DNA from: an uncultured Gammaproteobacteria bacterium
GTDB taxonomy: Bacteria > Patescibacteriota > Microgenomatia > Daviesbacterales > UBA10151
Assembly (NCBI GenBank): GCA_964446685.1
Contig: CAYUPO010000003.1
Coordinates: forward strand, 39,183-103,182
Length of the DNA stretch: 64,000 nt
Direction of reading: 5' to 3'
Below, piece after piece: positions 3,389-64,000 of the stretch. The notes beneath the pieces are model-generated. The model saw nothing but the letters and a program-made list of their open reading frames with translations. It did not search any database and was not told where the DNA came from. The first letter of the stretch is position 1; every line of letters starts with the position of its first letter. A program made the position numbers and the translations under genes.

Positions 3389-3528
3389 CAGAAGTCAAGT
3401 ATAGCGTATATAGTAATTAGTATCAAGAGGGAGCTACAAAAGGTATTAAGGGGTAAGTATTAAGTATAAAGAGAAAGACATATAAGAAGGTGACTCCTCC
3501 TTAATACTTTATACTTAACCCTTAATAC

Positions 3529-4029
3529 TTAATTTGATATGCTTTTCTTGCAGTAGAGAATTGGTGCTGATGATGTTCCTAATGCACCGCATCCGGTGGT
3601 AGGAGCGGTATCCACATTGGCTTTACCTGTTGGATTTACGAGTCTTGCACATATTATATAAGAAGTTGCTAATGTATTGGCAGCATTACAGCCATAATAG
3701 GTGTACTGATAGCTGGAAACTTCTCCGGTATTGGGATCACTAGGCGGTATATTGTTTGAAAAATAACCATTAAGCACTGTTAAAGCACTAATATTGCTTG
3801 ATCCATTAATTGCAGCTAAGGCAGGATAGCCATTGTTTGTCGCGTAGTATTGCTCTAAAGCGTTTTGGATTTCGCCGATTTCATTAATTCTTCTGCCATC
3901 CCGGGCATTTTTTTGAGCCTGACCAAAAAGTGCGGTACCAATTACTGAGACAATCGCAATTATGGCTATGGCAACCATTAGTTCGATTAAAGTAAATCCG
4001 GATCTGTTTTGAAAATGGGCAGTCTTCAT
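3529..4029 (-). CDS. Type IV pilin / pseudopilin (prepilin-type N-terminal cleavage/methylation domain)
   Basis: N-terminus 'GFTLIELMVAIAIIAIVSVIG' is the class III signal (G|FTLIE). Cys pairs sit near the C-terminus. 166 aa. Confidence 0.7.
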   Translation of the reverse strand: MKTAHFQNRSGFTLIELMVAIAIIAIVSVIGTALFGQAQKNARDGRRINEIGEIQNALEQYYATNNGYPALAAINGSSNISALTVLNGYFSNNIPPSDPNTGEVSSYQYTYYGCNAANTLATSYIICARLVNPTGKANVDTAPTTGCGALGTSSAPILYCKKSISN

Positions 4030-7231: not shown

Positions 7232-7639
7232 AATAATTTTTTGGAGCTAAAATTTGTGCTCAAAAATGTGAATACGACTTAGAAGGCTTCTTATACCTGA
7301 CTTTCGTCAAGCGAAACCAAAAAATCTCAACTATGACCATTAGTAGAAGTAAGCTAAACACGTTGCCATGCTTACACTGCTTCCCTATCAACCAGGTAGT
7401 CTACCTGGGGTCTTAGAGATTCCTCATCTTGGGGTCTGTTTCGTGCTTAGATGCTTTCAGCACTTATCAGGAAATAACGTAGCTACCCTGCGCTGCCAGT
7501 TTACTGACAACAGGCACACTAGCGGTTACCTCATCTCGGTCCTCTCGTACTAGAGACAACTCCCCTCAAGAATCCAAACGCCCATACTGGATAGAGTCCG
7601 AACTGGCTTACGCCGTTCTGAACCCAGCTCGCGTACCGT

Positions 7640-7672
<33 letters not shown>

Positions 7673-7705
7673 ACTTCAGCCCCAGGATACGATGAGCCGA
7701 CATCG

Positions 7706-8241: not shown

Positions 8242-8278
8242 AGGTGCCGAACCTTACCGTCCTTGTGGACTGTTGGGT

Positions 8279-8315
<37 letters not shown>

Positions 8316-8780
8316 ATAAGCCTTATCGATCCCATGATCAAATAAAGGATCACTTAAGCCTGCTTTCGCACCTGCTCGACCTGTTTGTCTCGCAGTCAAG
8401 CCCACTGTATACTTATGCGCTTGTAACCTCAATTTCTTTTTGAGGTAAGTGGACCTTTGCACTCCTCCGTTACGATTTTGGAGGAAACCGCCCCAGTTAA
8501 ACTGTCCGCCAGACCTTGTCTCACTCCCTGTTTTTATAAGGGTAAGTGGTTAGTCCTGTTAAATTAAAAGAGAGGTATTTCACGGTTGCCGAGGCTCCCT
8601 CCTATTCTACACAATTAATTCAACAAAACAGGGCCAAGCTCCAGTAAAGCTCCACGGGGTCTTCTTGTCCAAGTATGGGTAGGCCGCATCTTCACAGCCA
8701 TTGCAATTTCACCGGATCTATCCTCAAGACAGTCACTAAGTCGTTCTGCCTTTCGTGCGGGTCTGAACTCACCAGACAAG

Positions 8781-9230
8781 GAATTTCGCTCATTCCTATA
8801 TACACTTTGTATAAAATTTTGATGTTAACTTAAAACTTGCGTTTTAATGTGGATGAGTGACTTCCACTCTCTTAATCGCTTAAGAGTTCGGACTATATCT
8901 TGTACAAGTTTTAGCTTTTTTCTTGTACTCTAACATGTAGTCTCTGAGGGTTCGTGACAGATAGATCAGAGTTTCAGCGTAATCAGTGGATCAGATTATG
9001 GATAAATCGGATAGATCAGAACTTGCGTTCTGACTTCTCTGACTTCTCTGTCATCTGATTTCAGCTGATTTGCTGATCTTTCTGACGTCTCTGAAACGTC
9101 TTCCCTGCTGATTGACTCCGTCAATGAATTGTTACTGCTTTTTATAGCGAGTACCATTGCATACTGAGTTATTCCAGCAAATAGTTAGATTACAAAAACA
9201 CTGTATTGTCGCTTCTAAGGCGGCTAATTC
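8781..9230 (-). mobile_element. Group I intron in 23S at E. coli-equivalent position 1931 (helix 69-71 region), ORF-less
   Basis: It interrupts '...CTATGGT|AGCGAAATTCC'. The intron ends in G. It contains 'CAGAGACTACATG' (R element) and 'CAAGATATAGTCCGAAC' (S element), which nearly match the Tetrahymena consensus, with a P8-like hairpin between them. Confidence 0.75.
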
Positions 9231-10725
9231 ACCATAGAACAGTTATAGTTACTGCTGCCGTTCACCAGATCTTAGTCCCCAAGCTCGTCCCAACCTTGCG
9301 GCAGGAGTCACCTGAAAGTTTAAATTACTGGCACTGGGCAGGCGTCAGCCCGTATACATCAGCTTTCGCTTTGGCACGGACCTGTGTTTTTGATAAACAG
9401 TCGCTCAGTGGCGTTCGCTGCGACCCTGAAATCTTGCGATCCAGGGTGGGACATCTTGCTAACTTACGTCCAGCTATATTGCCGAGTTCCTTAAGGATAG
9501 TTCTTCCGATCGCCTTTGTATACTCAACTCGCCCACCTGTGTTGGTTTTAGTACGGTTTCTCTATGTTTCCATTACGAGGATTTTCCTGAAAACAGAAAA
9601 ATTCTTCCTTTCGGCGTCACAACTCACCTTTGTATCATGCACCTTACGGCACATGACAGCCCGACGAATCGGACCAAGAGCGGATTTGCCAACTCTCGCT
9701 AATTTGTTGCTTGCACTAGCATATAGCTAGCGAAGGTTTTCCCATTCTGTCCCCTCTTAAGGGCTCCTAGATAAATAAATTTATTTCGGACTTGTCAAAC
9801 ATAAAAAAGTACAGGAATTTTAACCTGTTGTCCATCCCATACGCCTTTTGGGGGCCTCTGGTTAGGACCGACTTACCCGACCCTGATTAACATTGGATCG
9901 GAAACCTGGGGCATTCGGCGGACTGATTTCTCATCAGTCTTTCGTTACTCATACCGGCATTCTCACTTCTAAACAATCCACCGCCTCTCACAAGTACGAC
10001 TTCACTTCGTTTAGAACGCTCCCCTACCACTTGTATTACTACAAATCTAAAGCTTCGGCAGTACATTTAGCCCCGATAAATTGTCGGCGCCACTGACCGT
10101 AGTAGACCAGCGAGCTGTTACGCTTTCTTTAAAAGATGGCTGCTTCTAAGCCAACTTCCTGGCTGTCTAAGGTCGATGACTTCCTTTAACACTTAATGTA
10201 CATTTAGGGGCCTTAGCTGTTAGTCTGGGTTGTTTCCCTTGAGACCGCTCCGCTTAGCCGGATCGGACTGACTCCTGCTACACAATATAGTATTTGAAGT
10301 TTGATTGGACCGATAGCATTGCTGCCACCAAGTCCATCCAGAGCTCTACCCCTATATTGATTGCACAGGGCTATACCTAGATATATTTCGGGGAGAACCA
10401 GCTATCTCCGAGTTCGTTAGGCATATCACCTCTAACCACAATTCATCCCAAAGAATTTCTGCTCTAGCGGGTTCGGTCCTTCACTCGTCTCTCGACGAGC
10501 TTCAACCTGATCATGGTTAGCTCACTCGGTTTCGGGTCTAAACACAGCTACTAATCGCCCGATTAGGGCTCGCTTTCACTACGGCTTCGTACAGAATACT
10601 TAGCCTTGCAGCAATGTTTAACTCACCGGTTCATTCTTCAATAGGCACGCGGTTCCACAAAAATGTGGTTCCACTGCTTGTCAACATACGGTTTCAGTTT
10701 CTATTTCACTGGGCGTCTCGCCCTT

Positions 10726-10765
<40 letters not shown>

Positions 10766-11699
10766 CGAAAGCATATTTAGCCTTAGCAAATGGTCTTGCT
10801 AGCTTCACCCAGGATTACACGTGTCCTGGGCTACTCAGGTGTTCAATAACGGTGTTTTAAATTTTAAATACAGGACTATCACCCTCTATGGTCTTACTTT
10901 CCAGCAAGTTCTTCTATTTAAAACACATCGCATAGCTTGAATCCTACAACCCTCCAGGCCTATCTCCTTACGGAAATAGGATAATCTGAAGTTTGGGCTC
11001 TTCCCTTTTCGCTCGCCACTACTTGGGGAATCATTATTATTTTCTGTTCCTGCGCTTACTTAGATGTTTCAGTTCAGCGCGTGCCCGCCGCCAACCTATG
11101 TATTCAGTTGGAGGTACTCTATAAAAGAGTGGGTTACCCCATTCGGAAATCTGTGAGTCAAAGCTTCTTGGCAGCTCTTCACAGCTTATCGCAACCATGT
11201 ACGTCCTTCTTCGGTGCTTTCGACCAAGGCATCCACCGTACGCCTTAATGTTGAGTATATTTTGGCTTCAATGACACACAAAAAGCTTCTTGCGAATCTT
11301 TCTGCATATCTAAATTTGGCCTTCCCATTCATAACTATCGATCGGATAGTTATGATGTTTGTTTTACTTCCACCCTTGCGGGTGTGATAAAACTGTCGTA
11401 TTCACATTTTAAAGTACAAACTCCAGGACTTAAGTTACTACGTCTTCCCTGCCTTTGCAGAGTTTTAAATGAATAATTGACGAATTCACCAAGCTCTTCG
11501 GCCCGGATATGAGCTTTCAATCATTTGATTAAAAAAACTTATCCTTGCTGAAAACCAACCCAAACTCTTTGCGTCAAACGTCTTTCATAGGTTGTGGGTT
11601 ATCTTTTATTTATATTTCGGCTTACGCCGAAGAGCGTAAGCTCGCAAGCTTCGCTTATATATGTAGATAACCCGTTTAAATGTCGTTCAGACATTTAAA

Positions 11700-11760: not shown

Positions 11761-11808
11761 TTTATTGAAAGGAGTTTACTCATTGCATATGCTTCCACCG
11801 GGCAACTG

Positions 11809-11880
11809 TGGACCCGAGAGGAGTCGAACCTCCTACATCTTCATTGCAAATGAAGCGTTCTACCGGTGAACTACGAGCCC
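11809..11880 (-). tRNA. tRNA-Ala (anticodon UGC)
   Basis: Cloverleaf with acceptor GGGCTCG/CGGGTCC that includes the G3·U70 Ala identity pair. D-stem GTTC/GAAC. Anticodon loop TTTGCAA. T-arm GGAGG-TTCGACT-CCTCT. CCA not encoded. Confidence 0.8.
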
Positions 11881-15946: not shown

Positions 15947-17788
15947 GTGAGAATATCAAATATCCAATATCCAATATCCAATGCCAAATGGGGTTCTAAG
16001 TTTACTTCTTATGTGCTATCTGCTATCAGCTCTCAGCTATCTGCCAACTCTCAAGCTGGTGTTGCTCAATTAGCTCTGGTTATGCTTCTTCTAGCAGGTG
16101 TCGCTGTAGGAACCTATGTGGTCCAAAATAGAACTAATCTCATCCCCCATGCACAGGAATGCACTGAAACCAGACTTGATAATGAATGCCGTGACGATGG
16201 GTATATATATGAAATTTATCAGGACTGTAATGGAGATTATAGAAGAGAAAACACAAATGAAACATGTGGAGAAAAAGATCAGACGGAATCCTGCGGTTAT
16301 GATCAGAAATCTGTAGAATACAGCTGCAAAAATGGCTATCGATGTTTTGAAGATTATTTCAAAGATTCTTCAACCAGCTGTAAATGGCAATATAAAGATC
16401 CACATTTTCACTGTGATGAAGATTCAAAATGTAGTACCGATGCCAAAAATAGCGCAGATAAAAATGAAGAAGAATGTCGAAATTCCGGTAACGTTTGGGA
16501 AGATAACACCTGTAAACAAAAAGCCGTCTCAAAAGGGCCATCTGGTCCAGGAAGCTCAGATGATAACAAAACGGCTGATAACACTTCATATGATCAGGGT
16601 GACTGCCGGGATGGAGCTAAAGTTTATAAAGACGGATACACCTGGATTACTTACTGTACTAAAGTCTGTAGTAAAAACTCTGATTGTCCAAAAAATACGA
16701 CTGATGGTGCAGTCAATCCTGAAACCAGTAACTGGTGTTACGGCTTTAATGGCGGTAAAGCTCCCCGTTGTATGATGCTGGTTCAGAGTGATAATAAAGA
16801 AGTCAATGACCAGTCAAGGAAAAGCAGTAACTCAAAAGCAGTTGAGGAGATTAAATCTACTATTGCTCAAGGTGGAGATCCTAACCCAGCGGCTGCCGCA
16901 GCTACTCAAAGTTCTTCAGCTGATTTTAAAGCTAAAATTGATGCTCAAAATACCCAACGAGGCAGCCTCGTCAGTGAGCTGGCCACTGTTTTAAATAATG
17001 CAGGATCAGGCAATAGTTCACTCACTGGCGCAGTTAACCGAGCCCAATCCCTGATTACTTCAGCTGCTTCAAGTGCTGCTGCCTGCTATACCGGAACTGA
17101 CAAACCATTAAATGACAGCTGTGATGCTACTACCCAGGCTGCCAACGATATCGCGGTTGCTGCTTCAAGGGTGGCTTTATTTGATGCAGTAGCAGCCGGT
17201 GTCCCTAATACCTGTGTCAAAGTTGATATGGCTGTTGGAGCTAATACTTCCAATTCAATTATAGAAGTTGCACCAGCTGAAAATGCCTCCAATCTATCCC
17301 GGTTATTTATGTGTCGCGGAGCAGAAAGCGCCACAGGTAAAAAAGATGGAGATATTAAATGGCGGGTTCGCGATAATAATGGCTCACTTCAAGAAGTATC
17401 CCAAACATCATTAACTCAGCTTGGTTTACAAAATGGCCAAAAACAAATTCTTACAATTCCAGAAAATTTTATAGTTAGACGTAATAACGCGGCAGCCTTA
17501 TCATCTCAGCCTGCATTTGCTGGGACAACTACCTTAAACTTTAATGAAACATCAAGCACTGCGTGGAAGGAAGTAGCTGTTAGTAATTGTTTAAGTAACT
17601 GCTCTAGTTTTCCGTCTGGCGCTGCTTGTTATCAAAAAGGAACTACCAACGAATATAATTGTAATGGAGCCAATCAAACGCAATCAACCGTTTCGGAAAA
17701 GAAGAACTTAGCGAAAAATGCTACCTGCAACGATAATAAAGAATGTAGATCAGGCCAGTGCAATCCGGGGACATCAAAATGTTTATGA
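15947..17788 (+). CDS. Cys-rich secreted/anchored protein, member of a local paralogue family
   Basis: Anchor 'GVAQLALVMLLLAGVAVGTYVVQNRTNLIP'. Roughly 40 Cys residues. C-terminal region 'CVKVDMAVGANTS...MCRGAESATGKKDGDIKWRVRD' is shared with 18138 and 20228. The start codon is uncertain because the 5' end overlaps the (AATATCC)3 repeat. Confidence 0.55.
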   Translation: MRISNIQYPISNAKWGSKFTSYVLSAISSQLSANSQAGVAQLALVMLLLAGVAVGTYVVQNRTNLIPHAQECTETRLDNECRDDGYIYEIYQDCNGDYRRENTNETCGEKDQTESCGYDQKSVEYSCKNGYRCFEDYFKDSSTSCKWQYKDPHFHCDEDSKCSTDAKNSADKNEEECRNSGNVWEDNTCKQKAVSKGPSGPGSSDDNKTADNTSYDQGDCRDGAKVYKDGYTWITYCTKVCSKNSDCPKNTTDGAVNPETSNWCYGFNGGKAPRCMMLVQSDNKEVNDQSRKSSNSKAVEEIKSTIAQGGDPNPAAAAATQSSSADFKAKIDAQNTQRGSLVSELATVLNNAGSGNSSLTGAVNRAQSLITSAASSAAACYTGTDKPLNDSCDATTQAANDIAVAASRVALFDAVAAGVPNTCVKVDMAVGANTSNSIIEVAPAENASNLSRLFMCRGAESATGKKDGDIKWRVRDNNGSLQEVSQTSLTQLGLQNGQKQILTIPENFIVRRNNAAALSSQPAFAGTTTLNFNETSSTAWKEVAVSNCLSNCSSFPSGAACYQKGTTNEYNCNGANQTQSTVSEKKNLAKNATCNDNKECRSGQCNPGTSKCL

Positions 17789-18137: not shown

Positions 18138-19508
18138 ATGCCCTTTAAACAATTTGAAATTCGAAATTCGAAATTTGAATTTAAATATAAATGTTTTAAT
18201 TTTAAATTTTTAAACTTTTCAAATTCACTTCAAATTTCAAATTTCAAATTTCAAATTTCAAATAGCTTTTCCTCAGAACGAGGTGTGGCTCAGTTGGCAT
18301 TAGTGATTCTGTTGTTAGCTGGGGTAGCTATTGGGACTTATGTTGTCCAAAACAGAACTAATGTTTCTCCTAATGCAGCTGCGCCAAATGAGTCTGAGGG
18401 CTGTAAAAAAGTGTCCTTCTCCGGAAGAAGTGAAAAAGAGCTGGCTGATGGAAGACTCGAGATTACTTTTACCTGGGCAGATGGCAGAACAACTTATGAT
18501 TATAAAACACCTAAAAAAGCTGATGGGGATAGAACTCTAATCGGGGCTCAGTCCCGCGGTACTCTGGCTGATGGAACGGCTATCAATAAGTCAGGTATCT
18601 CTAAAACGGTCGGAACTACCATCACTCAGGGCTGGTCAGATGGGAGTGTTCAATACAACACAGTTACTTCTGGAACAAATCATCAGGGGCTGGCTGGTGA
18701 CAGAATTGATCCTAGTCATTTTATGGTTCCAAACACCAAAGGTGGTTCCTGTGGTGAATCAACAACAACTGCTCCAAAAACCGGAACCGCACCAAAAACA
18801 GGGACAGCTCCTAAAACCGGGACTGCACCCATAACAAACACCACTCCAAAAACAAATACTCAAACAAACAATGCACCCGCTCCCATCACTCAGACTCAGC
18901 CGGCTCCGGCTATTAACACTTCAGCGACCACTGCTACATCACTTTTACAGCAGTTCCAAACACTACAGGAAGTATTTAATACAACTATTGTCACCAAAGT
19001 AGCCAGCTCATCAGCTGTTTTAAGTGCTGATTCAAAAAGCCGAATAGACTCTTTAATTACAAAAACTACTCAAAGCTTAAATAATGGTATCCAGTCATCA
19101 CAAAGTTGTATCACCACACCCACCACCACCTGTGCCAACAGCCTGCCTCCCCTTTTAAATTATTCTCTGGTGGCTGTCAGGCTCACTGCATTTAGTGCGT
19201 TGTTTGCTGATATTCCTGAGATGTGTTCGCGGGCAGATTTTGGAATTACTCCGGCGATAACTGCTGTCTCCCCCGACGGTGCAACCGGGCCAATTTATGT
19301 CTGCAGCGGATCTGATGGTAAAGAAAAAAAATGGCGGATCTTTGATACCAATAACTCCCCCCATCTACTGAGTACTACTGACGCCGCAAGCTGGAAGACT
19401 CTGTCAGATCCAGCTACAACAGCTGAATTCCCTCCAGCTTTCCAGGCTAAATTCTCGCAAGCTAATACCCTGGTAAATCAAGCCAGCAGCAGTGCCTCGC
19501 TACCGTAA
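18138..19508 (+). CDS. Secreted/anchored protein, paralogue of 15947 (start probably downstream of the annotated ATG)
   Basis: The same anchor 'GVAQLALVILLLAGVAIGTYVVQNRTNVSP'. (TAPKTG)n repeat. C-terminal 'CSRADFGITPAITA...YVCSGSDGKEKKWRIFD' domain. The first ~50 codons run through the (TCAAATT)4 repeat and are probably untranslated. Confidence 0.5.
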   Translation: MPFKQFEIRNSKFEFKYKCFNFKFLNFSNSLQISNFKFQISNSFSSERGVAQLALVILLLAGVAIGTYVVQNRTNVSPNAAAPNESEGCKKVSFSGRSEKELADGRLEITFTWADGRTTYDYKTPKKADGDRTLIGAQSRGTLADGTAINKSGISKTVGTTITQGWSDGSVQYNTVTSGTNHQGLAGDRIDPSHFMVPNTKGGSCGESTTTAPKTGTAPKTGTAPKTGTAPITNTTPKTNTQTNNAPAPITQTQPAPAINTSATTATSLLQQFQTLQEVFNTTIVTKVASSSAVLSADSKSRIDSLITKTTQSLNNGIQSSQSCITTPTTTCANSLPPLLNYSLVAVRLTAFSALFADIPEMCSRADFGITPAITAVSPDGATGPIYVCSGSDGKEKKWRIFDTNNSPHLLSTTDAASWKTLSDPATTAEFPPAFQAKFSQANTLVNQASSSASLP

Positions 19509-37400: not shown

Positions 37401-40400
37401 ATAATTTTTTGGCAATATTCCAACTTGTGCAGCAGTTTCTTCAGCCCTCTGTTTGACCTGAGGAGTATCGTAATAATTTGTATTCCAGATCCCATACTGA
37501 GTAGACAAACCGGCTGCCCGCATGGCAGCTGATAAGTCCCCTGTTGCGTTTAATGTCGCAAGCCCTGCCTGCATTTTCTCACTGGAAGATCTGGTAGAGT
37601 CTGTGGCAGTGATCCCATCATTTACAAATGACTGACCTGCATCGTATCCAATTGCGCCAATAAATGATAATGGATCCCGGACAGTTGGATGCTCACCTAA
37701 CCAGTTTTGGGCTGAAGCTACCAGTTGGCTGCCAGTTGAAACAGTAGATGATCTTACTGCCTGACATCCTTCTGTTAAGCTATAAACAGTAAAACATTTT
37801 ACCGCTGTATCTGCTTGGACAACCAATCCAGCTATTCCCTTGGCAGGAAGTATAATTCTGGCTGCTGATTGCTCAACTCTTCCCTCAGATAACTCAGCAG
37901 CGCGTTCTGCAACCCTTGTACCTACCTCCAATTCATTTTTGTTTGATTCACCAGTTAAGCTGGTCAGCGCACCTGTTCTCAAATTTTGTGGCAATGTGAT
38001 TGTTTCAGCAACTGTTGCTCCATAAATATTTCTAGCTTTTTCTAATGCATCCTGATATCCAGCCTCATCTCCGGCAGCTTTGGCCTGGGCAGCTGTTTGA
38101 TACCAGTCGTTCATAACCTTTCTTTGATCCCCTATTTTAGCTATGGTATCCAGAGAATTTGCCTGGGCTGCTAATACTGGGTCAGCCTTTAGGTCATCGG
38201 GCAGAGCACCAAAACGGGCTCTGGCTGTTTCGACTCTTTCAGCTGTCACAGCAGAATTGTTCTGATTTGCGGCATTGTAAGCAGCCCAGGTGACATCTTC
38301 CCTAAAGCTATCTACTGCTCTTTTTCTATCCAGGATGGTACTGACATTTTGGTTAAAGTTCGCTAGATCTGTTTGAAGTTTGGCTTTTTCTGGTGTTTCA
38401 GGTAAGACAGAAAGGGACAGTCTGGCATTTTCTAAAGCGGTTGTTTGAGGAGTCAGATCTTTATCAGGATTGCCAACATCATTTACAGCTAGCCTGGTGG
38501 CAAGACTAATATTTCCCTGAGCTGAACCGACCGAAGGTGCAGTATTAAAAGAGTTTTGCAACTGTCTAGCTGTGTCAGCTTGATTTGCTAAAGTAAGCGG
38601 GTTTATTACCTGTTCTCTAAATTGTCGACTTAACTCAGCCGACTGTTCATCAGTCTCAATATTTCCAGCCCGGGCAATCGCTAATCTTTCATTGACCAAT
38701 CTTTGGGCTGTACCTTCTACAACAGCGTTAGCATATTTATCCTGTAAATCTCCAACTATCACCCCATCTCCAGCTTTACTAGTAGCAGCCCTGATAATTG
38801 TGTTAAAACCTTCATCTAAAGCTGCTTTTTCATCAGCAGTTAAATGTCCGTTTGCAACCTGAGATTTAACATGATTGGAATATGCCTGGGCTGCTACAAT
38901 CTCCGGTATTACTCTGGCCTCGACTCTGAGCTGTTTAGCTTTTGCCGGATCAACTACTGCAATATGTTCTACTGAGGTATTCAGTCCATTAATAATGCCG
39001 CCAATGGCATTATTTGTGTCAGGATCCAAACTCTTACCTGCAGCAAACTCCTGCTCATATTCAGCCTTCCAGGCGTTGTAAGCAGCATTGCCAACTCTGG
39101 CTTCCAGCTGGTTAGCCTGGGCAGTTGCCACCGTGCCACCCTGAGTTCGTAATTTATCAACATAAGACAACCCGGCATCCTGCAAAAATTCAACCTCCTC
39201 TCTTCCAACATTTGTCTGACCATTTAACTTAGCATGTGCCTCAAGCAGATTGGCCATTTGAGTACCTGATTCAACTAATCTTTCTGTTGAACGAATTGCA
39301 TTTGTTCGAGAAGGAATTGTGTTAAGTTGATCTTCGAATGTGGCTGCAGAACCTTTTGACCCCAACTCTTTGAGCCGGTTAATCCCCTGCTCAGCTTCAG
39401 CTAATTTTTGACGGTAAAGCGGATCATCTTCTGGTCTGGCTATAGAAATATTTGAATCAGGATTATAGTCATTTGACCGGTCATACTGCAGTCTCAACTG
39501 TTGTGCTGCTGCTAGATCCCGTGATACCTGTTGATTGGTATCAAGAATCTGATTCACTTTTTCCAAACCTGCTACCTGAGAATCGACTGTGCTTCTATCC
39601 AGTGATAATGATGCCTGTGGAAGTATATTGATGGCTTTTTCTGCTTGTCTTAATTTTTCTAATGCTGCTTCCTGGTCTGCCTGCAGCTTTTCCAATTTGG
39701 CTGCTGTTTCTACCGGAATGTAACCCAAATCTCTAACAACTGCCGCTCCATACTGATCAAGTTGATTTGTAGCAACTGAGGCTTCTGTAACAGCATAGTT
39801 GTATTGGACATGATTGGTTACAGCTTGGGATGCTATAACAGGAGCAGTCGTGATGTAAGTAGGACATGATGCTTTAATATAATCTGTCACACATTCCTGA
39901 TGCTGCTCGACTGCTTTATCCCTATTCAAATCCCTGGCATCAGGACTATTTGAAAAACTGGTAGTGTAATAATCTGCTGCACGGGTTTCAATAGTTTTAC
40001 AACTAGTTACCGCATTGTAAGCACATCCATCCTGCCCTTGAATTTGGCCTGGGCCAACGGCTCCTCCCTGCCTGATTGTTCTGGCTGGAGTTACAACAAC
40101 TGGCTTACATTGCTCATCATTCATACACCCTGACAGGGCTGGAGCCCCAACACATTTATTTTCTGCGTTACAAGTGGCCTCCTTATTGATTTTGATTGTT
40201 CCCTTGGCCTGGCAGGCAGAACAAACTCCGCCACCTTGGCTTAAGTCACATTTACCTTCAACATCACCTTTGCCATAGCAAACATGTTCACCTTGGCTGC
40301 CGTCTCCCAGATCACAAATCTCTGGCTGAAGACAAGATTTACCTTCTTCAAATTTCTGCGAGAATAGTCTGGCAGGATCAATTGGTGCATCAGCAGCGGC

Positions 40401-43029: not shown

Positions 43030-43115
43030 TACAAATAACCCAATAAACAAATGTCAAATAAACAAATACCAAATTATTGGACATTTGACATTGGGTTATT
43101 TGTTTATTGGGTTAT
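43030..43115. repeat. Inverted-repeat intergenic element, family C (copy 2)
   Basis: 'CCAATAAACAAATGTCAAATAAACAAAT...TTGGGTTATTTGTTTATTGGG'. Homologous to 21365..21480. Confidence 0.5.
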
Positions 43116-43599: not shown

Positions 43600-43760
43600 G
43601 TCTCAATCAGAAAGCATCTGACTCCCCTCTCACTTATGTCATTCTGGAAAGCAACGACTTTACCAGAATCAAACTAAGGATAATTCTGGACAAGCCAGAA
43701 TGACACTAAGGGCTATCAGCTAAACAATTGTCCCTTTGTCATTCTGATCCGCCAGCTGGC
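43600..43760. mobile_element. MITE-like elements (family 2: GTCATTCTGG...CCAGAATGAC) and hairpin TCCGCCAGCTGGCGGA
   Basis: Two nested GTCATTCTG/CAGAATGAC inverted-repeat pairs. A further copy lies at 60705..60860. Confidence 0.45.
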
Positions 43761-43774
43761 GGAGAAGAATATGA

Positions 43775-43845
43775 GCAAAGCTCTTCTACGAATGAGCAAA
43801 GCTCTTCTACGAATGAGCAAAGCTCTTCTACGAATAATTTACTTG
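43775..43845. repeat. 23-bp tandem repeat x3 (GAATGAGCAAAGCTCTTCTAC)
   Basis: Three perfect copies seen directly. Confidence 0.8.
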
Positions 43846-44375: not shown

Positions 44376-44512
44376 TTAATTTCTAATTACTAATTTCTAA
44401 GTACTCTAAACAAATCCTAAATTCTAATGACTAATATATTCAGACATTTAATTTTTTGACATTATTTAGGTCAATTAGAAATTAGTAATTAGAAATTAGA
44501 ATTTTTTTAGTA
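44376..44512. repeat. Inverted-repeat intergenic element, family A/B (copy B)
   Basis: 'TAATTTCTAA..CTAAACAAATCCTAAATTCTAATGACTAA..GACATTATTTAG..ATTAGAAATTAG'. Homologous to 20108..20230. Confidence 0.55.
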
Positions 44513-46856: not shown

Positions 46857-46950
46857 ATGTCATTTCGAGCTTAGCGAGAAATCTCAAGACTAAAAAAGAA
46901 TCAACTTGGTTTTAATCAAGAGCTCTCTCGCTCCTCGCTCGAGATGACAA
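46857..46950. mobile_element. MITE-like palindromic element, family 1 (copy 2)
   Basis: 'GTCATTTCGAGCTTAGCGAGAAATCTCAAGACTAAAA...CTCTCTCGCTCCTCGCTCGAGATGACA'. Confidence 0.5.
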
Positions 46951-58424: not shown

Positions 58425-59263
58425 GGCAAAATAATTTTTGATCTAGGTTTTTGTGATTTGATATTTGCAAAAAATTCCCTTAATTTTTCCACTTCTTCTT
58501 CTAAAGACTCAAAATGAAATCCGTTATTGAAACGGGTAACAAGATTTTTAATTGTTCCACCATTACTGATATCTATTACTGCCTCATAGCCCTTCTGTCC
58601 CCAATATCTAACAACTTCTTCCAGATTTACCTTTCTCACCATTGACCCAACCATCTCTTCTATTACTCCTTCAGCTGTGGTAATTTCCTTCATTTTTCCG
58701 GTAGACGGAATTATTGGTATTTTTGGATCTTTTATTTCAGTATTTTGTAGTATTTCTGAAAATTGTCTGGCTTCTTCTTCTCGTTCATCACTATGATATA
58801 TCCCTTCGGCTGTTAAATATCCTCTAAATCTTTTTCCGGCCTCATCTGCTAATAACCTTAACTCACGCATTGATCCTCCCAGAACATGAGCTCCAGGACC
58901 ATTATCATTTGTCCAGTCCAAACCGGGAAATTGGGCTAATAATTCTGAAATTTTATCCCGACTAGCCAAGATCACTGCCATTGCCGATCTCTCCTCTTCC
59001 GGTTTATTTTGCTCAGCTTTCCTGACTATATTAGCTCTTGTTTCTGCCAATTGAAATGCAACTTCACGCGGGAAAGCTCCTGCTATTGATGCACCAGCAA
59101 AAATCCCAAAACTATATGGAAAAATTGCGTCAGGTATAAATCCTGGGTTTATGCCTATTAATTGGTCATGTCTGGCAAATTGACTTCTTAAAATATCAGT
59201 TTCTGGCCTGATGGAAGATGTATGAATTATCCCTTGTCCAGCAATGGCCTCAATAGTTTTCAT
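58421..59263 (-). CDS. Hypothetical cytoplasmic protein
   Basis: 280-aa ORF with no motif recognised. Confidence 0.4.
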   Translation of the reverse strand: MKTIEAIAGQGIIHTSSIRPETDILRSQFARHDQLIGINPGFIPDAIFPYSFGIFAGASIAGAFPREVAFQLAETRANIVRKAEQNKPEEERSAMAVILASRDKISELLAQFPGLDWTNDNGPGAHVLGGSMRELRLLADEAGKRFRGYLTAEGIYHSDEREEEARQFSEILQNTEIKDPKIPIIPSTGKMKEITTAEGVIEEMVGSMVRKVNLEEVVRYWGQKGYEAVIDISNGGTIKNLVTRFNNGFHFESLEEEVEKLREFFANIKSQKPRSKIILP

Positions 59264-59427
59264 ACATAAAGTATACGCTAATTTTCATACCGAAGTTTTC
59301 GTGGTAGAATAGTCAGAGTTAAAGGAGGCTGGGTTAGCCCCTGTCGAATTGCACGCAATTCGCAGGCGATCTCGAAAACTTTTCTTGAAAGCTTCGCTTT
59401 CTATAAATAGAAGATGTTTTCTCCGAT

Positions 59428-59500
59428 GGTGCAGTGGTGAAGTGGAAACACTGGAGTCTGCAAAACTTCGATTGCGTGGGTTCGATTCCCACCTGCACCT
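59428..59500 (+). tRNA. tRNA-Cys (anticodon GCA), probable
   Basis: Acceptor GGTGCAG/CTGCACC. Anticodon stem GGAGT/ACTTC with loop CTGCAAA. T-arm GTGGG-TTCGATT-CCCAC. 3-bp D-stem. Confidence 0.6.
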
Positions 59501-59801
59501 CATTAGTAATCGAACCCATACCAGAGCTAGGGTTCGACTTTTTACGAAGTAAAAAGCAAGGTTCTGGCGAAGCCAGGTTCTTATTCTCGCCTGCACTCCA
59601 CACCTACATTAAGTAGTTCTTTAGAGAATGGAGTGCTATCGAAAAATCTATTTCGATAGTGACGTAATTCTCGCATGGACGAAGTCCATATTCCCACCTG
59701 CACCTCACAAAGTTAATCGAACTTGTTCTAAAGCGGATAATATAGATTCCCGATTTCTCGGGAATGACGGCGAGTCAGGGAGGGTAAATTGCTACAAATC
59801 T

Positions 59802-60614
59802 TTACTCAAACCAATCTCTTTCTATTTTCATTCTAATTAACTTTAGTGATACGCCTTCTTCATGAAACCGATGCCCTTTGGGAAATACTCTTTTAACCAC
59901 TTTTTTACTCCAGTTTTCTGAGGCCATAAAAATAAGTAACATCAGTGACAAACTGCCAAAAAGCGTGACAAAACTATAACTTGTGACCACTACAATCGGA
60001 TACTGGTAGATCTCCCCTACCAGTGGATTGGCATAATAAAAAAGTATGGCACTGGCAATCAGCGAAGAAACCAAACTGAAACTAATATGAGTGCTACGGA
60101 TGATCCCGATTGCCTGAATTACTCCGATAGCAACTCCAAAAGCTATGATCATCCAGGATGGAATTTGAGGCTGTAGAGCCGGATGGTTAATCTCTAAAAG
60201 AGCCAGAAAAAGTGAACCAAAAATAACACTTATAAATAACAGATTGTGCGAAAGTCCACCATGAAACTTTTCATTAACATCAAAAGTTGGGGAAGCGGAT
60301 TCTTTGTTTTTAACAAATGATTGATAGACACTGGTGGAAGTGGAATGGATGCCGTTGCCGACTGCAGCGATCATCAAAAAAAACACATAGGCCTGAAAAA
60401 GAAATCCACTGTCTAAATAAATATTCGCTACCTGTGGACGGTTCATGATCTCCATGCCCAAAGATAACATCAAAGAAAACATTATCGGACCAACTACCAG
60501 ATAATAAAGCTGAATAAAATAAAGCCCGCCGATGCTGATATCAGAAGTAAATCTCTTTTTATAGACTAATACCGCTGAAAGGCCGAGCAGAAACACTGCG
60601 ATCAGTGAATACAT
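59802..60614 (-). CDS. Polytopic membrane protein
   Basis: 270 aa with ~7 hydrophobic helices. Confidence 0.4.
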   Translation of the reverse strand: MYSLIAVFLLGLSAVLVYKKRFTSDISIGGLYFIQLYYLVVGPIMFSLMLSLGMEIMNRPQVANIYLDSGFLFQAYVFFLMIAAVGNGIHSTSTSVYQSFVKNKESASPTFDVNEKFHGGLSHNLLFISVIFGSLFLALLEINHPALQPQIPSWMIIAFGVAIGVIQAIGIIRSTHISFSLVSSLIASAILFYYANPLVGEIYQYPIVVVTSYSFVTLFGSLSLMLLIFMASENWSKKVVKRVFPKGHRFHEEGVSLKLIRMKIERDWFE

Positions 60615-60640
60615 ATATAAATATTGTACCAGATTGATAT

Positions 60641-60697
60641 CAGCTACCAGCTACCAGCTACCAGCTACCAGCTACCAGCTACCAGCTACCAGCTAAA
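60641..60697. repeat. Heptanucleotide tandem repeat (ACCAGCT)x8, 30-90 nt upstream of the start of 59802..60614
   Basis: Eight perfect tandem copies seen directly. Confidence 0.9.
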
Positions 60698-60704
60698 CAA
60701 TTAT

Positions 60705-60968
60705 CCCATTTGTCATTCTGGCTACATCATTAGATTTACCAGGAATTAACTATGCCTTAACAATATTTAGTCCAGAATCTTAACTTGGTTTGATTCTGGA
60801 CACTTCGACCAGGCTTCGACGATGAGCTCAGCCGAATCGCTCAGTGCATAGCAAGCCAGAATGACAGAAGATTCAAAGAGTAAGTCTATGGTTATAATCT
60901 GAGATCTCTCCACCCGTAGCACTTCGTGAAACGATGTGGACGGGTCACTCCTCGTTCGAGATGACACA
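60705..60968. mobile_element. MITE-like element, family 2, plus a family-1 half-site
   Basis: 'TTTGTCATTCTGGCT...AGCCAGAATGACAGAAG' inverted repeats ~140 nt apart. 'CTCCTCGTTCGAGATGACA' at 60945-60965. Confidence 0.45.
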
Positions 60969-61025
60969 AGAAATAATCCACTATTAATGATTGCTGAAAC
61001 AGCATTTTTTTAGTAGGGTATGTAG

Positions 61026-62240
61026 GTGATTCAAAAAATTACCCCTTTTTTACTTCTTAGTATTGTGGTGGCAGTACTTATTCATTTGGGAACATTTGTT
61101 CCCTACCGTGAACATCTTTTGTATGATGTCTCTGTTTATTATCAAAGATCACTTTATTTTTTTGATCATGCCAAGCTGACGGATGTCACCAATGAATATC
61201 TGCCGATGGCCTCACTCTTTTTTATCTCATTTTCTCCGGTATTTTTCTTTGGCAATTCTCTGGAGCTGTTTGAAAGGGTTTTTGTTTTAGGAAACGGAGC
61301 TTTACTGCTTCTGCTGGGCTTTTTGATTTACAAAGAAAAAGGGTCCAAAGCTCTTTTTTTGTTTAGCGGATTAGTCCTGGCGGCAGGTCCGATTGTACTC
61401 TACCGTTTTGAATTGCTGGTTATTTTAACCATGATTTTGGCAATACTCCGTTTTCAAAAAGGTGACTGGCTGACTTCCAGTATTTTTCTTAGTCTGGGAA
61501 CGCTGGTAAAACTGTATCCATTTTTGCTTTTGCCCTATTTTCTAATCCTGACTTTTCATAAAAATGGAATAAAACAGGCTTTTAAATATCTGGCGGTATT
61601 TATTCTTACTACTCTTGGAGGTATTTTAATTTATTTTTTTCTAACCCAAACCGGGATCAAAGAACTCTTGTTTAGCCTGGATTTTCATAAAGACAAACCT
61701 CTTGGACTGGAGAGTTCGATTGGTGGAATTACTCATCTAATGCAGTATTTACAAACCGGTCAGGCAGCACCAATTGTTGCCAGGCACAATACTTGGGGAG
61801 TTGATGATGCCTTTTTACTGCTACCAATGCCTATTTTGACATATCTTTGGACTATTCCTGTAACAGGAATCTATCTTTGGCTGCTTTTTTCAAAACAGCA
61901 AAAAGCCAGTTTTATATTTGTTATAACTTTTCTGACTAGTTTCTTTGTTTTTTCCAAACTGTTTACCCCTCAGTACTGGCTGTGGGTGCTTTTTTTGATG
62001 CCATTTCTGGAACTGAAAAAATCACTCCTCATCTGGTCAATGATTATTCTGGCGGTTCTGGCAACAGCCATTACCCAATTTATTTATCCGCTTCACTACT
62101 TTGATTTTCTGGGATATTTTTACAATCAGGATAAAAGATTTGAGTATTTATTTTGGATTTATCTGACGGAGATTTTTTGTATGATTGCTGCAGCTCTTAT
62201 TTCTATAATCTTACTTCTTAAGAGAAAAACCTGGAGTTAA
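61026..62240 (+). CDS. Polytopic membrane protein (possible GT-C-type glycosyltransferase; weak)
   Basis: 404 aa with 10 or more TM segments. Overall resemblance to DUF2029/ArnT-like topology only. Confidence 0.35.
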   Translation: MIQKITPFLLLSIVVAVLIHLGTFVPYREHLLYDVSVYYQRSLYFFDHAKLTDVTNEYLPMASLFFISFSPVFFFGNSLELFERVFVLGNGALLLLLGFLIYKEKGSKALFLFSGLVLAAGPIVLYRFELLVILTMILAILRFQKGDWLTSSIFLSLGTLVKLYPFLLLPYFLILTFHKNGIKQAFKYLAVFILTTLGGILIYFFLTQTGIKELLFSLDFHKDKPLGLESSIGGITHLMQYLQTGQAAPIVARHNTWGVDDAFLLLPMPILTYLWTIPVTGIYLWLLFSKQQKASFIFVITFLTSFFVFSKLFTPQYWLWVLFLMPFLELKKSLLIWSMIILAVLATAITQFIYPLHYFDFLGYFYNQDKRFEYLFWIYLTEIFCMIAAALISIILLLKRKTWS

Positions 62241-63222: not shown

Positions 63223-63759
63223 TTATCCTGCCGAAGTACCCTTGTCTGCAATAGTACTTGGATTTACAGGCTTCATCATTGGCAGTATATCTTCACCATT
63301 TTCACCATATTTATTTCCATCTGTTCCAGCAGAATGAGGCTTTACTTCATTTTTTTTGTCTTTTGAAGTAACCTGCTCATCAGTTAAAGGAGGGACTTCT
63401 GCAGCTGGGGCATAGACTGGCTTTGCCTGTCCATAGGAATCCCAATTTGGCGGCATCCCATTATTTTCTTCACCTTCCCCATCGGGAATTGTTGTAGGAA
63501 CCGGAGAAACGCTCGGTGCGGCTTCTGTCTGATTTCGGCCAGATTGTGACGAAGCAAGTCCTGCACCAAGCCCGAGAGCTGCTAAAGCCCCTCCCATTAA
63601 TTTTAACAATCCACGTCTGGAGGGTCTTGTTGAAGTGGCCGCTTCAGGTGAGCTTGCAGATGTATCAATTTTATTTCTTGCATCAGCCATACTTTTCAAA
63701 GCTGATTGTTGATCAGGTGACAATATTCCCGGTGGTCGTGAATCTCTAATTTCAGTCAT
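63223..63759 (-). CDS. Secreted protein with twin-arginine-like signal and 'GENGEDILPMMKP' repeat
   Basis: 'SRRGLLKLMGGALAALGLGAG' resembles a Tat signal. Paralogue of 62264..63172. Confidence 0.4.
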   Translation of the reverse strand: MTEIRDSRPPGILSPDQQSALKSMADARNKIDTSASSPEAATSTRPSRRGLLKLMGGALAALGLGAGLASSQSGRNQTEAAPSVSPVPTTIPDGEGEENNGMPPNWDSYGQAKPVYAPAAEVPPLTDEQVTSKDKKNEVKPHSAGTDGNKYGENGEDILPMMKPVNPSTIADKGTSAG

Positions 63760-64000
63760 ACAAACACACTATCTTAAGTCAAATTAACCGTCAAGTAATA
63801 TAAATCTTGGCCTAACAATATACAAAAAATCCCCCGTGAGGAGGATTGTCGCAATACGCAATACGCAATACGCAATAAAATTATTATACATCTCTTTTTG
63901 CGTGTCTCGTGTTGCGGCTATTTATATTCAAAACAGTGGTGGGATTAGTGATGATTTTTAAGTGTCATCAACACTTTCGACTACCATTCAATAGTCTTCG

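What the first reader, a model, noticed from the sequence alone, without database searches (positions are those of the whole stretch)
60641..60697. (ACCAGCT)x8 heptamer array in the promoter region of a membrane-protein gene: candidate phase-variation switch
Eight perfect 7-nt units lie 30-90 nt upstream of the start codon of 59802..60614. Seven-nucleotide tandem repeats recur at many other gene boundaries in this window. (AATATCC)3 and (AATATCT)3 lie at the alr/24746 divergent region and at the 15947 start. (TCAAATT)4 lies at 18138. (GATTTAC)4 lies at 21062. (ATTTGAT)4 lies at the gap stop. (CGCAATA)4 lies at 63840. A recurring heptamer periodicity is unlikely by chance. It suggests slipped-strand contingency loci changing promoter spacing, or a family of protein-binding sites.
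Basis: seen in the sequence. Interest (0 to 1): 0.55.

Follow-up and report, generated by a model that had tools for sequence, protein, structure and literature searches.

The report
Heptamer microsatellite upstream of membrane gene
The eight-copy 7-base repeat is real. It is one of many slippage-made 7-base microsatellites filling the spacers, and some gene starts, of this small uncultured (CPR/Microgenomates-like) bacterium, and nothing found here shows that it works as an on/off switch.

Summary
Window 60639..60695 reads ATCAGCT + (ACCAGCT)x7 + A, 25-81 nt upstream of the ATG of a 7-TM protein gene (59802..60614, minus strand). Perfect arrays of at least 3 copies with period 7 number 8 in the window, against 0.005 expected. 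Periods 5, 6 and 8-12 give none.

The heptamer arrays are not specific to promoters. They fill 3 of 4 convergent spacers and abut the stop codons of gap and a pilin-like gene. The target array lies upstream of a conserved extended -10 (TGGTACAAT, 8 nt before the ATG, probably a leaderless mRNA), so it cannot change -35/-10 spacing.

Two lineages with 91-93% protein identity carry an array at the same site with units TAGCTGA or TAGCTGT instead of TAGCTGG. This shows unit turnover by slippage. A paralogous segment at 43712..43746 keeps a single unit. Relatives at 46-50% identity have no array.

In a sister clade, strains 1% apart show no unit-sized indel in 8 arrays. No independent strain was available for the target array.

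My best reading is a clade-specific case of the known over-representation of heptanucleotide repeats (cyanobacterial STRR-like). Any effect on expression would be modulatory.

Three arrays inside 5' coding tails (genes 15947, 18138, 21041) are better phase-variation candidates than the target.

The parts
60639..60695 (.). Heptamer array: ATCAGCT + (ACCAGCT)x7 + A on the + strand. On the gene strand this is (TAGCTGG)x7 followed by TAGCTGA.
   Evidence: The same array and copy number are present in L001.
60623..60631 (-). Putative extended -10 promoter element TGGTACAAT. It ends 8 nt before the ATG, which suggests a leaderless or near-leaderless mRNA.
   Evidence: Read from the sequence. The 24 nt AATCTGGTACAATATTTATATATG are identical in three lineages whose genes are only about 84% identical in DNA. 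The L012 ortholog has TTGCGT-N17-TATAAT ending 6 nt before its ATG. Promoter function is inferred, not shown.
59802..60614 (-). Gene for a 270-aa polytopic membrane protein of unknown function, downstream of the array.
   Evidence: There are 45 homologs, all in CPR/Microgenomates-type metagenome contigs.
61026..62240 (+). Divergent neighbour, a GT87-like membrane glycosyltransferase. The pairing with the membrane-protein gene is conserved in distant relatives.
60700..60708 (-). Second, weaker extended -10-like site TGGGATAAT just distal to the array. If it is used, the array would be transcribed as a 5' UTR hairpin.
   Evidence: Sequence. RNA fold of 60585-60712 (minus strand) gives -44.7 kcal/mol, z = -3.8. 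Speculative.
60711..60866 (.). Inverted-repeat element: 13-nt perfect arms TGTCATTCTGGCT/AGCCAGAATGACA enclosing the hairpin 60770-60801. It forms the distal flank of the array.
43712..43746 (+). Paralogous 35-nt segment GCTATCAGCTAAACAATTGTCCCTTTGTCATTCTG. It has the same flanks as the target array but a single ATCAGCT unit, and represents the unexpanded state.
15952..16044 (+). Two heptamer arrays (AATATCC x4.4 and TATCTGC-type x5) inside the 5' coding tail of gene 15947..17788, ahead of its TM anchor.
18151..18263 (+). Heptamer arrays (GAAATTC, TTCAAAT x5 and others) inside the 5' coding tail of gene 18138..19508.
21062..21092 (+). CGATTTA x4.4 array inside the 5' coding tail of gene 21041..21364, between the conserved start codon and the TM anchor.
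20109..20224 (.). AATTTCT x4.3 and TTAGAAA x4.3 arrays in a spacer between two same-strand genes.
21436..21475 (.). Imperfect heptamer/octamer arrays just upstream of the true start (21479) of the 21419..21988 ORF.
23265..23400 (.). AATTTGA and TTTCAAA x9.3 arrays in the convergent spacer between 22220..23266 (+) and alr (-).
24632..24700 (.). AATATCT/AATATCC x7.1 plus TCACTGT x2.7 arrays in the divergent spacer between alr and 24746.
26265..26297 (.). TATTTGA x4.7 array abutting the gap stop codon, in a convergent spacer.
44377..44501 (.). TAATTAC x4.1 and AATTAGA x4.1 arrays filling a convergent spacer.
3443..3533 (.). GTATTAA x4.1 and CTTAATA x4.9 arrays between the stop of a pilin-like gene and the 5S rRNA.
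63850..63877 (.). CGCAATA x4.0 array upstream of 63223..63759. The whole segment 63801-63921 is absent in a 97%-identical relative.

Best explanation
The array is a slippage-generated heptanucleotide microsatellite. It is one instance of a clade-specific proliferation of 7-nt tandem repeats in the non-coding spacers, and in a few dispensable 5' coding tails, of this Microgenomates-like CPR bacterium.

Origin. It grew by tandem duplication of a pre-existing ATCAGCT heptamer at the edge of a small dispersed inverted-repeat element. It has since been repeatedly expanded, contracted and homogenised.

Why this unit. On the gene strand, the hexamer core TAGCTG is self-complementary (an AGCT palindrome plus G.T/G.U pairs). 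This should stabilise slipped-strand hairpins and make the unit prone to expansion. Only the seventh, unpaired base differs between lineages.

Position and effect. The array sits directly upstream of a -35-independent extended -10 promoter of a probably leaderless membrane-protein mRNA, at about -25 to -81. Copy-number change therefore does not alter core promoter geometry. At most it would modulate expression through upstream DNA properties or through the helical phasing of elements further upstream, since each 7-bp unit rotates them by about 240 degrees.

Shown: the array, the excess of period 7, the spread across all spacer types, the restriction to one clade, unit turnover at a fixed site, the single-unit paralog, and the conserved core promoter sequence.

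Inferred: slippage as the mechanism, promoter identity and leaderless status, and the absence of a switch function.
For: - Period 7 is the only enriched period: 8 arrays against 0.005 expected. The lag-7 signal is confined to intergenic DNA.
- Arrays occur in divergent, same-strand and convergent spacers alike, next to housekeeping genes such as alr, gap and 5S rRNA.
- The lag-7 excess in non-coding DNA is shared by relatives with alr at least 70% identical: L019 z = 3.5, L023 z = 6.5, L003 z = 4.5. It is absent in syntenic but more distant relatives (L012/13, L011) and in Curtissbacteria and Peribacteria loci.
- Orthologous spacers carry different units or no array.
- At the target site, three lineages have TAGCTGG, TAGCTGA or TAGCTGT arrays next to an identical core promoter.
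- The window's promoter-proximal unit is TAGCTGA, the L009 unit.
- The paralogous segment 43712-43746 has one unit between the same flanks.
- Relatives at 46-50% identity have a 130-nt spacer with no array.
- Arrays of (AYCAGCT) with at least 4 copies occur in at least 120 metagenome contigs spanning 30-70% GC. Only 1 of the 120 encodes a homolog (38% identity) of any of the 34 window proteins tested. In those 627 kb, period 7 again dominates: 189 arrays (at least 120 of them the selected arrays themselves) against 12 for period 6 and 4 or fewer for the others.
- Heptanucleotide repeats are reported as the most abundant long simple-sequence repeats in many bacteria, with a polymerase-slippage explanation proposed (Mrazek 2007, as summarised in PMC4679880 and PMC4692102).
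- L024 and L025 against L023 (99.0-99.2% identity, 106 substitutions in 10.8 kb) show no unit-sized indel in 8 arrays.
Against: - An array has been kept at this exact site in all three lineages at 91-93% protein identity, each with more than 30 nt of array. Variation is confined to the one position outside the self-complementary hexamer. This could reflect selection for the array rather than mutational persistence.
- Eight perfect copies is the range in which slippage rates become high. The stable arrays examined in the sister clade are shorter (2.3-5.1 copies) and mostly imperfect.
- No read-level or independent-strain data exist for this array.
- The promoter assignment is untested. The consensus scan found no sigma-70 site with a -35 element.
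- Why 7 nt is favoured remains unexplained.
Confidence: 0.6

Rival explanations
1. It is a true contingency locus. Frequent gain or loss of 7-nt units upstream of the promoter switches or grades expression of the membrane protein, for example by rotating an upstream activator or repressor site or the divergent promoter relative to the core promoter. This would resemble the Neisseria nadA TAAA tract.
For: - Eight perfect copies sit directly upstream of the core promoter of an envelope-related gene that pairs with a GT87 glycosyltransferase.
- The array is retained at the same site in three lineages and has been fully homogenised in each, so many slippage events occurred.
- Heptamer repeats are proven phase-variation elements at H. 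influenzae hmw1A/2A (PMC12721329).
Against: - The array is not between -35 and -10.
- The same kind of array fills convergent spacers and flanks housekeeping genes.
- No copy-number polymorphism was seen. L001 has the same number but is the same strain, and sister-clade arrays are invariant at 1% divergence.
- No upstream regulator site is known.
Confidence: 0.2
2. It is a transcribed 5' UTR element similar to hmw. Transcription from a promoter distal to the array (TGGGATAAT, 60700-60708) would produce (UAGCUGG)n. This folds into a long hairpin of 6-bp UAGCUG self-pairs, which could control mRNA stability or translation, for example through RNase III.
For: - The RNA fold of 60585-60712 (minus strand) is -44.7 kcal/mol, z = -3.8, and none of 200 shuffles folds as well.
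- The only position that varies among lineages is the unpaired seventh base.
- The hmw 5' UTR hairpin built from heptamer repeats is a precedent.
Against: - A better, fully conserved extended -10 lies between the array and the ATG, and orthologs without arrays also have a -10 right before the ATG.
- Any array with a self-complementary core folds well, so the fold is not independent evidence.
- The sequence distal to the array is unknown in the other lineages because their contigs break inside the array.
Confidence: 0.08
3. The arrays are reiterated binding sites for a DNA- or RNA-binding protein, such as a nucleoid-associated protein, an iteron-type protein or a cold-shock/S1-type binder that reads 7-nt registers.
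For: - Some units recur at several loci: the AATATCN family at 15959, 24632, 24653 and 26265, and at the orthologous site in L023 (17889). AAATTAG occurs at 20121 and 44487 and in L019.
- MacGregor 2015 speculated that cold-shock proteins bind heptamer repeats.
Against: - There are more than 10 unrelated units.
- Orthologous spacers carry different units.
- Single copies occur at chance frequency.
- Arrays lie at both 5' and 3' gene ends.
Confidence: 0.07
4. It is an assembly or sequencing artefact.
For: Short-read k=31 contigs (Logan) break inside the array.
Against: - The 55-nt array is shorter than a read.
- An independent JGI assembly (L001) reproduces it exactly.
- Three lineages from different studies carry arrays at the same site.
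Confidence: 0.01

Closest known systems
Over-representation of heptanucleotide long simple-sequence repeats in prokaryotic genomes (Mrazek, Guo and Shah 2007, as summarised in PMC4679880 and PMC4692102)
   Same: The unit is 7 nt, the arrays are short and tandem, and they are biased to intergenic DNA. Period 7 is the dominant long-repeat class and many different units occur. A polymerase-slippage origin has been proposed.
   Different: It was described mainly for large genomes such as Burkholderia, cyanobacteria, Actinobacteria and Xanthomonas. Here it appears in a CPR/Microgenomates-type lineage and switches on and off between fairly close relatives. Some arrays here also lie inside 5' coding tails.
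STRR (short tandemly repeated repetitive) heptamers of heterocystous cyanobacteria, and GGGAATC / GGGGAYT repeats of Xanthomonas and Nostoc (PMC4692102)
   Same: Heptamer arrays lie in spacers, including between convergent genes. Length and sequence vary between close species at conserved positions. No proven function is known.
   Different: STRR and the G-rich repeats use a few dominant units genome-wide, and some can form G-quadruplexes. Here the units are diverse and mostly AT-rich. The target unit has an AGCT palindromic core and cannot form a G4.
TAACTGA intergenic direct repeats of marine Beggiatoaceae, cyanobacteria and Bacteroidetes (MacGregor 2015, PMC4679880)
   Same: Arrays of 2-6 heptamers lie in spacers, often just upstream of start codons. 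Singleton frequency does not predict arrays. The rotated unit AACTGAT differs by one base from this site's AGCTGAT.
   Different: There a single unit dominates, with an orientation bias toward 5' UTRs. That is not seen here.
Haemophilus influenzae hmw1A/hmw2A (ATCTTTC)n phase-variable repeat (PMC12721329, PMC8262952)
   Same: A heptamer array lies upstream of an envelope protein gene, and the array RNA can form a long hairpin.
   Different: The hmw arrays have at least 11 copies. They lie between the promoter and the ATG, are transcribed, and have been shown to vary within populations and to grade expression. Here there are 8 copies, probably upstream of the promoter, with no variation data. 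The same repeat class is spread over all spacer types.
Neisseria opa CTCTT repeats in the signal-peptide coding region (from my own knowledge, not checked here)
   Same: This comparison applies to the arrays at 15947, 18138 and 21041, not to the target. A repeat whose unit is not a multiple of 3 sits in the 5' coding region ahead of the membrane-targeting segment, so a change of one unit shifts the reading frame.
   Different: No on/off alleles were observed here. The N-terminal tails are hypervariable in homologs, which could simply mean they are unconstrained.

Membership tests
Phase-variable contingency locus (repeat-mediated) | The repeat is placed where a one-unit change alters expression: between -35 and -10, inside the ORF, or in a regulatory 5' UTR | tested here: inconclusive
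   The array is not in the ORF, because TAG occurs in every unit on the gene strand. It is not between a -35 and a -10, because it is 55 nt long and lies upstream of the conserved TGGTACAAT. A 5' UTR location would need the weaker distal promoter. The transcription start site is unmapped.
Phase-variable contingency locus (repeat-mediated) | Copy number is polymorphic among near-identical strains or within a population | tested here: inconclusive
   L001 has the same number, but it is identical to the window outside 59484-59551 and so is the same strain. L002, L009, L010 and L150-152 break inside the array. In sister-clade strains 1% apart, 8 arrays show no unit-sized indel.
Phase-variable contingency locus (repeat-mediated) | Repeats are concentrated at surface or host-interaction genes rather than spread over the genome | tested here: not met
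   Arrays occur in 3 of 4 convergent spacers of at least 100 nt, at the gap and pilin-like gene stops, next to 5S rRNA and flanking alr.
Heptanucleotide long-repeat class (Mrazek-type / STRR-like) | Tandem array with a 7-nt unit and at least 3 copies | tested here: met
   7.9 perfect copies.
Heptanucleotide long-repeat class (Mrazek-type / STRR-like) | Period 7 is over-represented relative to other periods and to chance | tested here: met
   8 arrays against 0.005 expected, and periods 5, 6 and 8-12 give 0. There is a lag-7 peak with harmonics.
Heptanucleotide long-repeat class (Mrazek-type / STRR-like) | Bias to intergenic DNA, with sequence and length variation between related genomes at conserved spacers | tested here: met
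   The lag-7 signal is present only outside genes. Units differ at orthologous spacers in L003, L019 and L023 and at the target site in L009 and L150.
hmw-type 5' UTR heptamer hairpin | The array is transcribed as part of the 5' UTR and pairs into an RNase III-cleaved hairpin | not testable with these tools
   Only a predicted fold is available. There are no transcript data.

The most novel reading that the evidence does not exclude
In this CPR clade, heptamer microsatellites could act as a genome-wide contingency system for the cell envelope. The target array would tune a leaderless promoter or form an hmw-like 5' UTR hairpin. The in-frame arrays in the N-terminal tails of three membrane-anchored proteins (15947, 18138, 21041) would switch those proteins on and off by +/-7-nt frameshifts. 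That would be the first phase-variation system described in an ultra-small episymbiotic bacterium. The on/off distribution of the heptamer trait among close relatives could also expose the factor that sets the long-unexplained preference for 7 nt.
Probability: 0.15. Interest if true: 0.65.

Novelty: new member of a known kind. Interest (0 to 1): 0.35.

Why it matters
Heptanucleotide repeats are the most common long simple-sequence repeats in many bacteria, yet neither the reason for the 7-nt preference nor any general function is known. This case offers a small genome in which the trait is strong. Relatives with alr at least 70% identical share it, while syntenic relatives at about 46-50% protein identity lack it. 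That contrast makes a comparative search for the responsible replication or repair factor feasible.

The target site also gives an unusually clean natural series: a single-unit paralog plus three lineage-specific homogenised arrays that differ only at the base outside a self-complementary hexamer. This supports hairpin-assisted slippage.

For annotation, it warns that a repeat in a promoter is not enough to call phase variation when the whole genome is littered with the same repeat class. It also flags three 5' coding arrays as the candidates worth testing.

Tried and rejected
- Protein-guided scans of genome contigs and metagenome contigs with the 270-aa protein found no relative.
- Exact-protein look-ups for the GT87-like protein and for the 243-aa ORF 20228..20959 found nothing, probably because the called start codons differ.
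- Logan contigs break at every array longer than about 30 nt. Copy number could therefore not be read in L002, L009/10, L016-18 or L150-152.
- L001 looked like a 98.6%-identical second strain, but all its differences lie at 59484-59551. It is not an independent test.
- Rfam found nothing in 59200-61200 except tRNA-Cys.
- The sigma-70 consensus scan found no promoter with a -35 element.
- A sigma-54 reading of TGG-N-GC within the array was considered and dropped. The spacing is off by one, and this was an eye check only.
- A small-ORF reading (41-aa ORF 60624..60749, encoding SYQLPAT repeats) was rejected as a by-product of a unit that lacks stop codons.
- A dispersed binding-word reading was rejected because the singleton counts of ten units match expectation.
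- A literature search for heptamer repeats in CPR/Patescibacteria found no report.

Full report
**1. Observation**

The + strand at 60639..60695 reads ATCAGCT, then ACCAGCT seven times, then A. TRF reports 60641..60695, period 7, 7.9 copies, 100% matches, score 110. On the minus strand it lies 25-81 nt upstream of the ATG (60614-60612) of ORF 59802..60614. That ORF encodes a 270-aa protein with about seven hydrophobic segments and no Pfam match.

The divergent neighbour 61026..62240 is a GT87-like membrane glycosyltransferase.

**2. More than chance**

Among perfect tandem repeats of at least 3 copies with periods 4-15, the window has eight of period 7, one of period 4 and none of any other period. 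In 200 first-order Markov simulations the expectation for period 7 is 0.005 per window. Self-match at lag 7 in intergenic DNA is 0.328 against a baseline of about 0.27, with harmonics at 14 and 21. Genes show only the period-3 signal.

**3. Organism and clade**

The window carries a 23S rRNA gene spanning 3938 nt against a 2925-nt model, an unlinked 5S gene and three tRNAs. It also has pilin-like, cohesin/dockerin and giant-protein genes. The nearest alr homologs are an unnamed MAG at 72% (labelled Gammaproteobacteria, probably a mislabel), then Curtissbacteria, Daviesbacteria and Microgenomates at 45-50%. This is a CPR/Microgenomates-type genome.

The lag-7 excess in non-coding DNA is shared by relatives with alr at least 70% identical:
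- L019: z = 3.5
- L023: z = 6.5
- L003: z = 4.5

It is absent in syntenic relatives whose membrane protein is 46-50% identical (L012/13, L011) and in Curtissbacteria and Peribacteria loci. The heptamer trait is therefore specific to one clade.

**4. Where arrays sit**

From the ORF map and TRF, period-7 arrays occur in four settings:
- Divergent spacers: 24632-24700 and the target.
- Same-strand spacers: 3443-3533, 20109-20224 and 43076-43094.
- Three of the four convergent spacers of at least 100 nt: 23265-23400, 26265-26297 abutting the gap stop, and 44377-44501.
- The 5' ends of three ORFs (section 8).

They flank housekeeping genes such as alr, gap and 5S rRNA.

**5. Anatomy of the target promoter region**

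On the gene strand, the array is followed by TATCAATCTGGTACAATATTTATATATG. TGGTACAAT (60623-60631) is an extended -10, and its hexamer ends 8 nt before the ATG. This points to a leaderless or near-leaderless mRNA.

The 24 nt AATCTGGTACAATATTTATATATG are identical in three lineages whose coding DNA is only about 84% identical. The ortholog in L012 has TTGCGT-N17-TATAAT ending 6 nt before its ATG.

So the array lies upstream of the core promoter and cannot change -35/-10 spacing. Whatever occupies the -35 position is array sequence at any copy number. The tool's consensus scan, which requires a -35, found no site. The promoter assignment is therefore an inference.

A weaker TGGGATAAT lies just distal to the array (60700-60708). 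If it were used, the array would be transcribed. (UAGCUGG)n folds into stacked 6-bp UAGCUG self-pairs (-44.7 kcal/mol, z = -3.8).

**6. Evolution at the site**

- *Close lineages.* Two further lineages carry an array at exactly the same position but homogenised for another seventh base. L009/L010 (93% protein identity) have TAGCTGA. L150-152 (91%) have TAGCTGT. The window has TAGCTGG. All of these k=31 contigs end inside the array, so it exceeds 30 nt in each, but the copy number is unknown.
- *Ancestral unit.* The window's promoter-proximal unit is TAGCTGA, the L009 unit.
- *Which base varies.* The only variable position is the one outside the self-complementary hexamer TAGCTG.
- *Unexpanded paralog.* A paralogous 35-nt segment at 43712-43746 has the same flanks (…GCT ATCAGCT AAACAATT.TCCC.TTTGTCATTCTG) with a single unit. 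The flank belongs to a small inverted-repeat element present at 43637-43705 and 60711-60866.
- *Distant relatives.* Relatives at 46-50% identity keep the GT87/membrane-protein gene pair with a 130-nt spacer and no array.

Together these give a series: single unit, then expansion, then lineage-specific homogenisation. That is the signature of replication slippage or unequal exchange acting on a microsatellite.

**7. Is it hypervariable?**

This could not be tested for the target. L001 (JGI) has the same copy number, but it differs from the window only at 59484-59551 and so is the same strain.

In the sister clade, L024 and L025 differ from L023 by 1% (106 substitutions over 10.8 kb). They have only one indel, of 2 nt, and no unit-sized change in eight arrays of 2.3-6.9 copies. 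That argues against contingency-type mutation rates for arrays of this class. Those arrays are, however, shorter and less perfect than the target.

A 97%-identical relative (L147-149) lacks the whole segment carrying the CGCAATA array and has an extra gene there instead.

**8. Arrays inside genes**

In three genes the arrays lie between a start codon conserved with the L023 ortholog and the conserved TM anchor, and they are in frame:
- 15947..17788 (613 aa)
- 18138..19508 (456 aa)
- 21041..21364 (107 aa)

Homologs of the 613-aa protein have hypervariable N-terminal tails. Several show peptide repeats that translate heptamer arrays, for example SYQLSA, which corresponds to (ATCAGCT)n.

A change of one unit would shift the frame, so these are formally better phase-variation candidates than the target. 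The same pattern is also expected if unconstrained tails simply tolerate in-frame arrays.

**9. Generality of the unit**

Arrays of (AYCAGCT) with at least 4 copies occur in at least 120 metagenome contigs with 30-70% GC. Only one of the 120 loci encodes any homolog of the 34 window proteins tested. About 75% of the evaluable arrays are not inside long open frames.

In those 627 kb, perfect arrays of at least 3 copies number 189 for period 7, against 12 for period 6 and 4 or fewer for the other periods. At least 120 of the 189 are the arrays the loci were selected for, so the comparison partly reflects that selection. Heptamers with an AGCT core therefore appear to be expansion-prone across bacteria.

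Single copies of ten array units occur in the window at chance frequency. This argues against a dispersed binding-site family.

**10. Comparison with known systems**

Heptanucleotide repeats have been reported as the most abundant long simple-sequence repeat class in many bacteria, with polymerase slippage proposed as the cause (Mrazek 2007, as summarised in PMC4679880 and PMC4692102). Closely similar phenomena of unknown function include cyanobacterial STRR, the Xanthomonas/Nostoc G-rich heptamers and the Beggiatoaceae TAACTGA repeats.

The only well-characterised functional heptamer repeat is (ATCTTTC)n at H. influenzae hmw1A/2A. That array has at least 11 copies, is transcribed in the 5' UTR, forms an RNase III hairpin, and has been shown to vary. 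The target shares the unit length and the hairpin potential, but not the demonstrated features. I found no report of heptamer arrays in CPR bacteria.

**11. Verdict**

The feature is real and the statistics are strong. The mechanism is ordinary: a clade-specific heptanucleotide microsatellite, making this a new member of a known kind.

The phase-variation reading is not excluded for this eight-copy array, but the evidence that could be gathered does not support it. 'Promoter spacing' is contradicted by the anatomy.

Confidence in the passive or modulatory microsatellite explanation is 0.6, and in a true contingency switch 0.2. Interest is 0.35.

Noticed in passing
window 15947-16100, 18138-18290, 21041-21100: Heptamer arrays lie in frame inside the N-terminal cytoplasmic tails of three membrane-anchored proteins, between start codons conserved with L023 orthologs and the conserved TM anchor. 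A change of one unit would shift the reading frame. Homolog N-tails are hypervariable, and some encode SYQLSA, which corresponds to (ATCAGCT)n.
   Followed up: partly
window 60711-60866 and 43637-43705 (plus 43712-43746): A small inverted-repeat element has 13-nt arms TGTCATTCTGGCT/AGCCAGAATGACA around a CCAGAATC...GATTCTGG hairpin. It occurs as a short and a long copy in two divergent spacers. It could be MITE-like or a structured RNA (minus-strand fold z = -3.6). There is no Rfam match.
   Followed up: partly
window 60948-60968, 22107-22127, 46931-46949: A dispersed motif of about 21 nt, CTCCTCG(T/C)TCGAGATGACA, occurs in three spacers, always on the + strand. Its role is unknown.
   Followed up: no
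window 7321-11258, 3276-3392, 11808-11880: The 23S rRNA spans 3938 nt against a 2925-nt model, so it has about 1 kb of insertions. Tandem arrays (7756-7846, 8057-8121) and ORF 9206..9730 lie within its span. The 5S gene is 4 kb away with three protein genes in between. tRNA-Ala sits upstream, but no 16S gene is adjacent. Similar GATGAGATC/ATCTGATTT arrays occur at L023 17988-18100.
   Followed up: no
window 27434-28426: The ADP-ribosylglycohydrolase gene is split into 156-aa and 169-aa ORFs in the window and in L017. It is a single 330-aa gene in L018 (99.86% identical, one gap). This is a frameshift allele or pseudogene.
   Followed up: partly
window 43771-43835: A perfect 21-nt (3 x 7) tandem repeat with 3.1 copies (ATGAGCAAAGCTCTTCTACGA) lies in a divergent spacer next to the inverted-repeat element.
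   Followed up: no
window 63801-63921 vs L147-L149: In a 97%-identical relative, the segment holding the CGCAATA array and a GC-rich hairpin followed by a T-run is replaced by about 800 nt carrying an extra 201-aa gene.
   Followed up: partly
window 28464-42932: A giant 4822-aa ORF carries 186-nt internal repeats (41962-42429) and other coding repeats.
   Followed up: no
L003 (CAYOMO010000056.1): This MAG is labelled 'uncultured Gammaproteobacteria', yet it has the closest alr in the species-representative genome collection searched (72%) and shares the lag-7 signal. It is probably a mislabelled CPR genome. It also has a 29-nt x2.6 array at 8947-9021.
   Followed up: no
L027-L146 (metagenome contigs): Arrays of (AYCAGCT) with 4-18 copies are widespread in contigs of 30-70% GC, almost none of which encode homologs of the window proteins tested. 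In those contigs period 7 is by far the commonest perfect-repeat period, although the loci were selected for a period-7 array.
   Followed up: partly
L008 (Paceibacteria, JBFEPE010000004.1): Non-coding DNA shows a lag-7 excess (z = 4.2) without a lag-14 harmonic and without perfect heptamer arrays. The cause is unknown.
   Followed up: no
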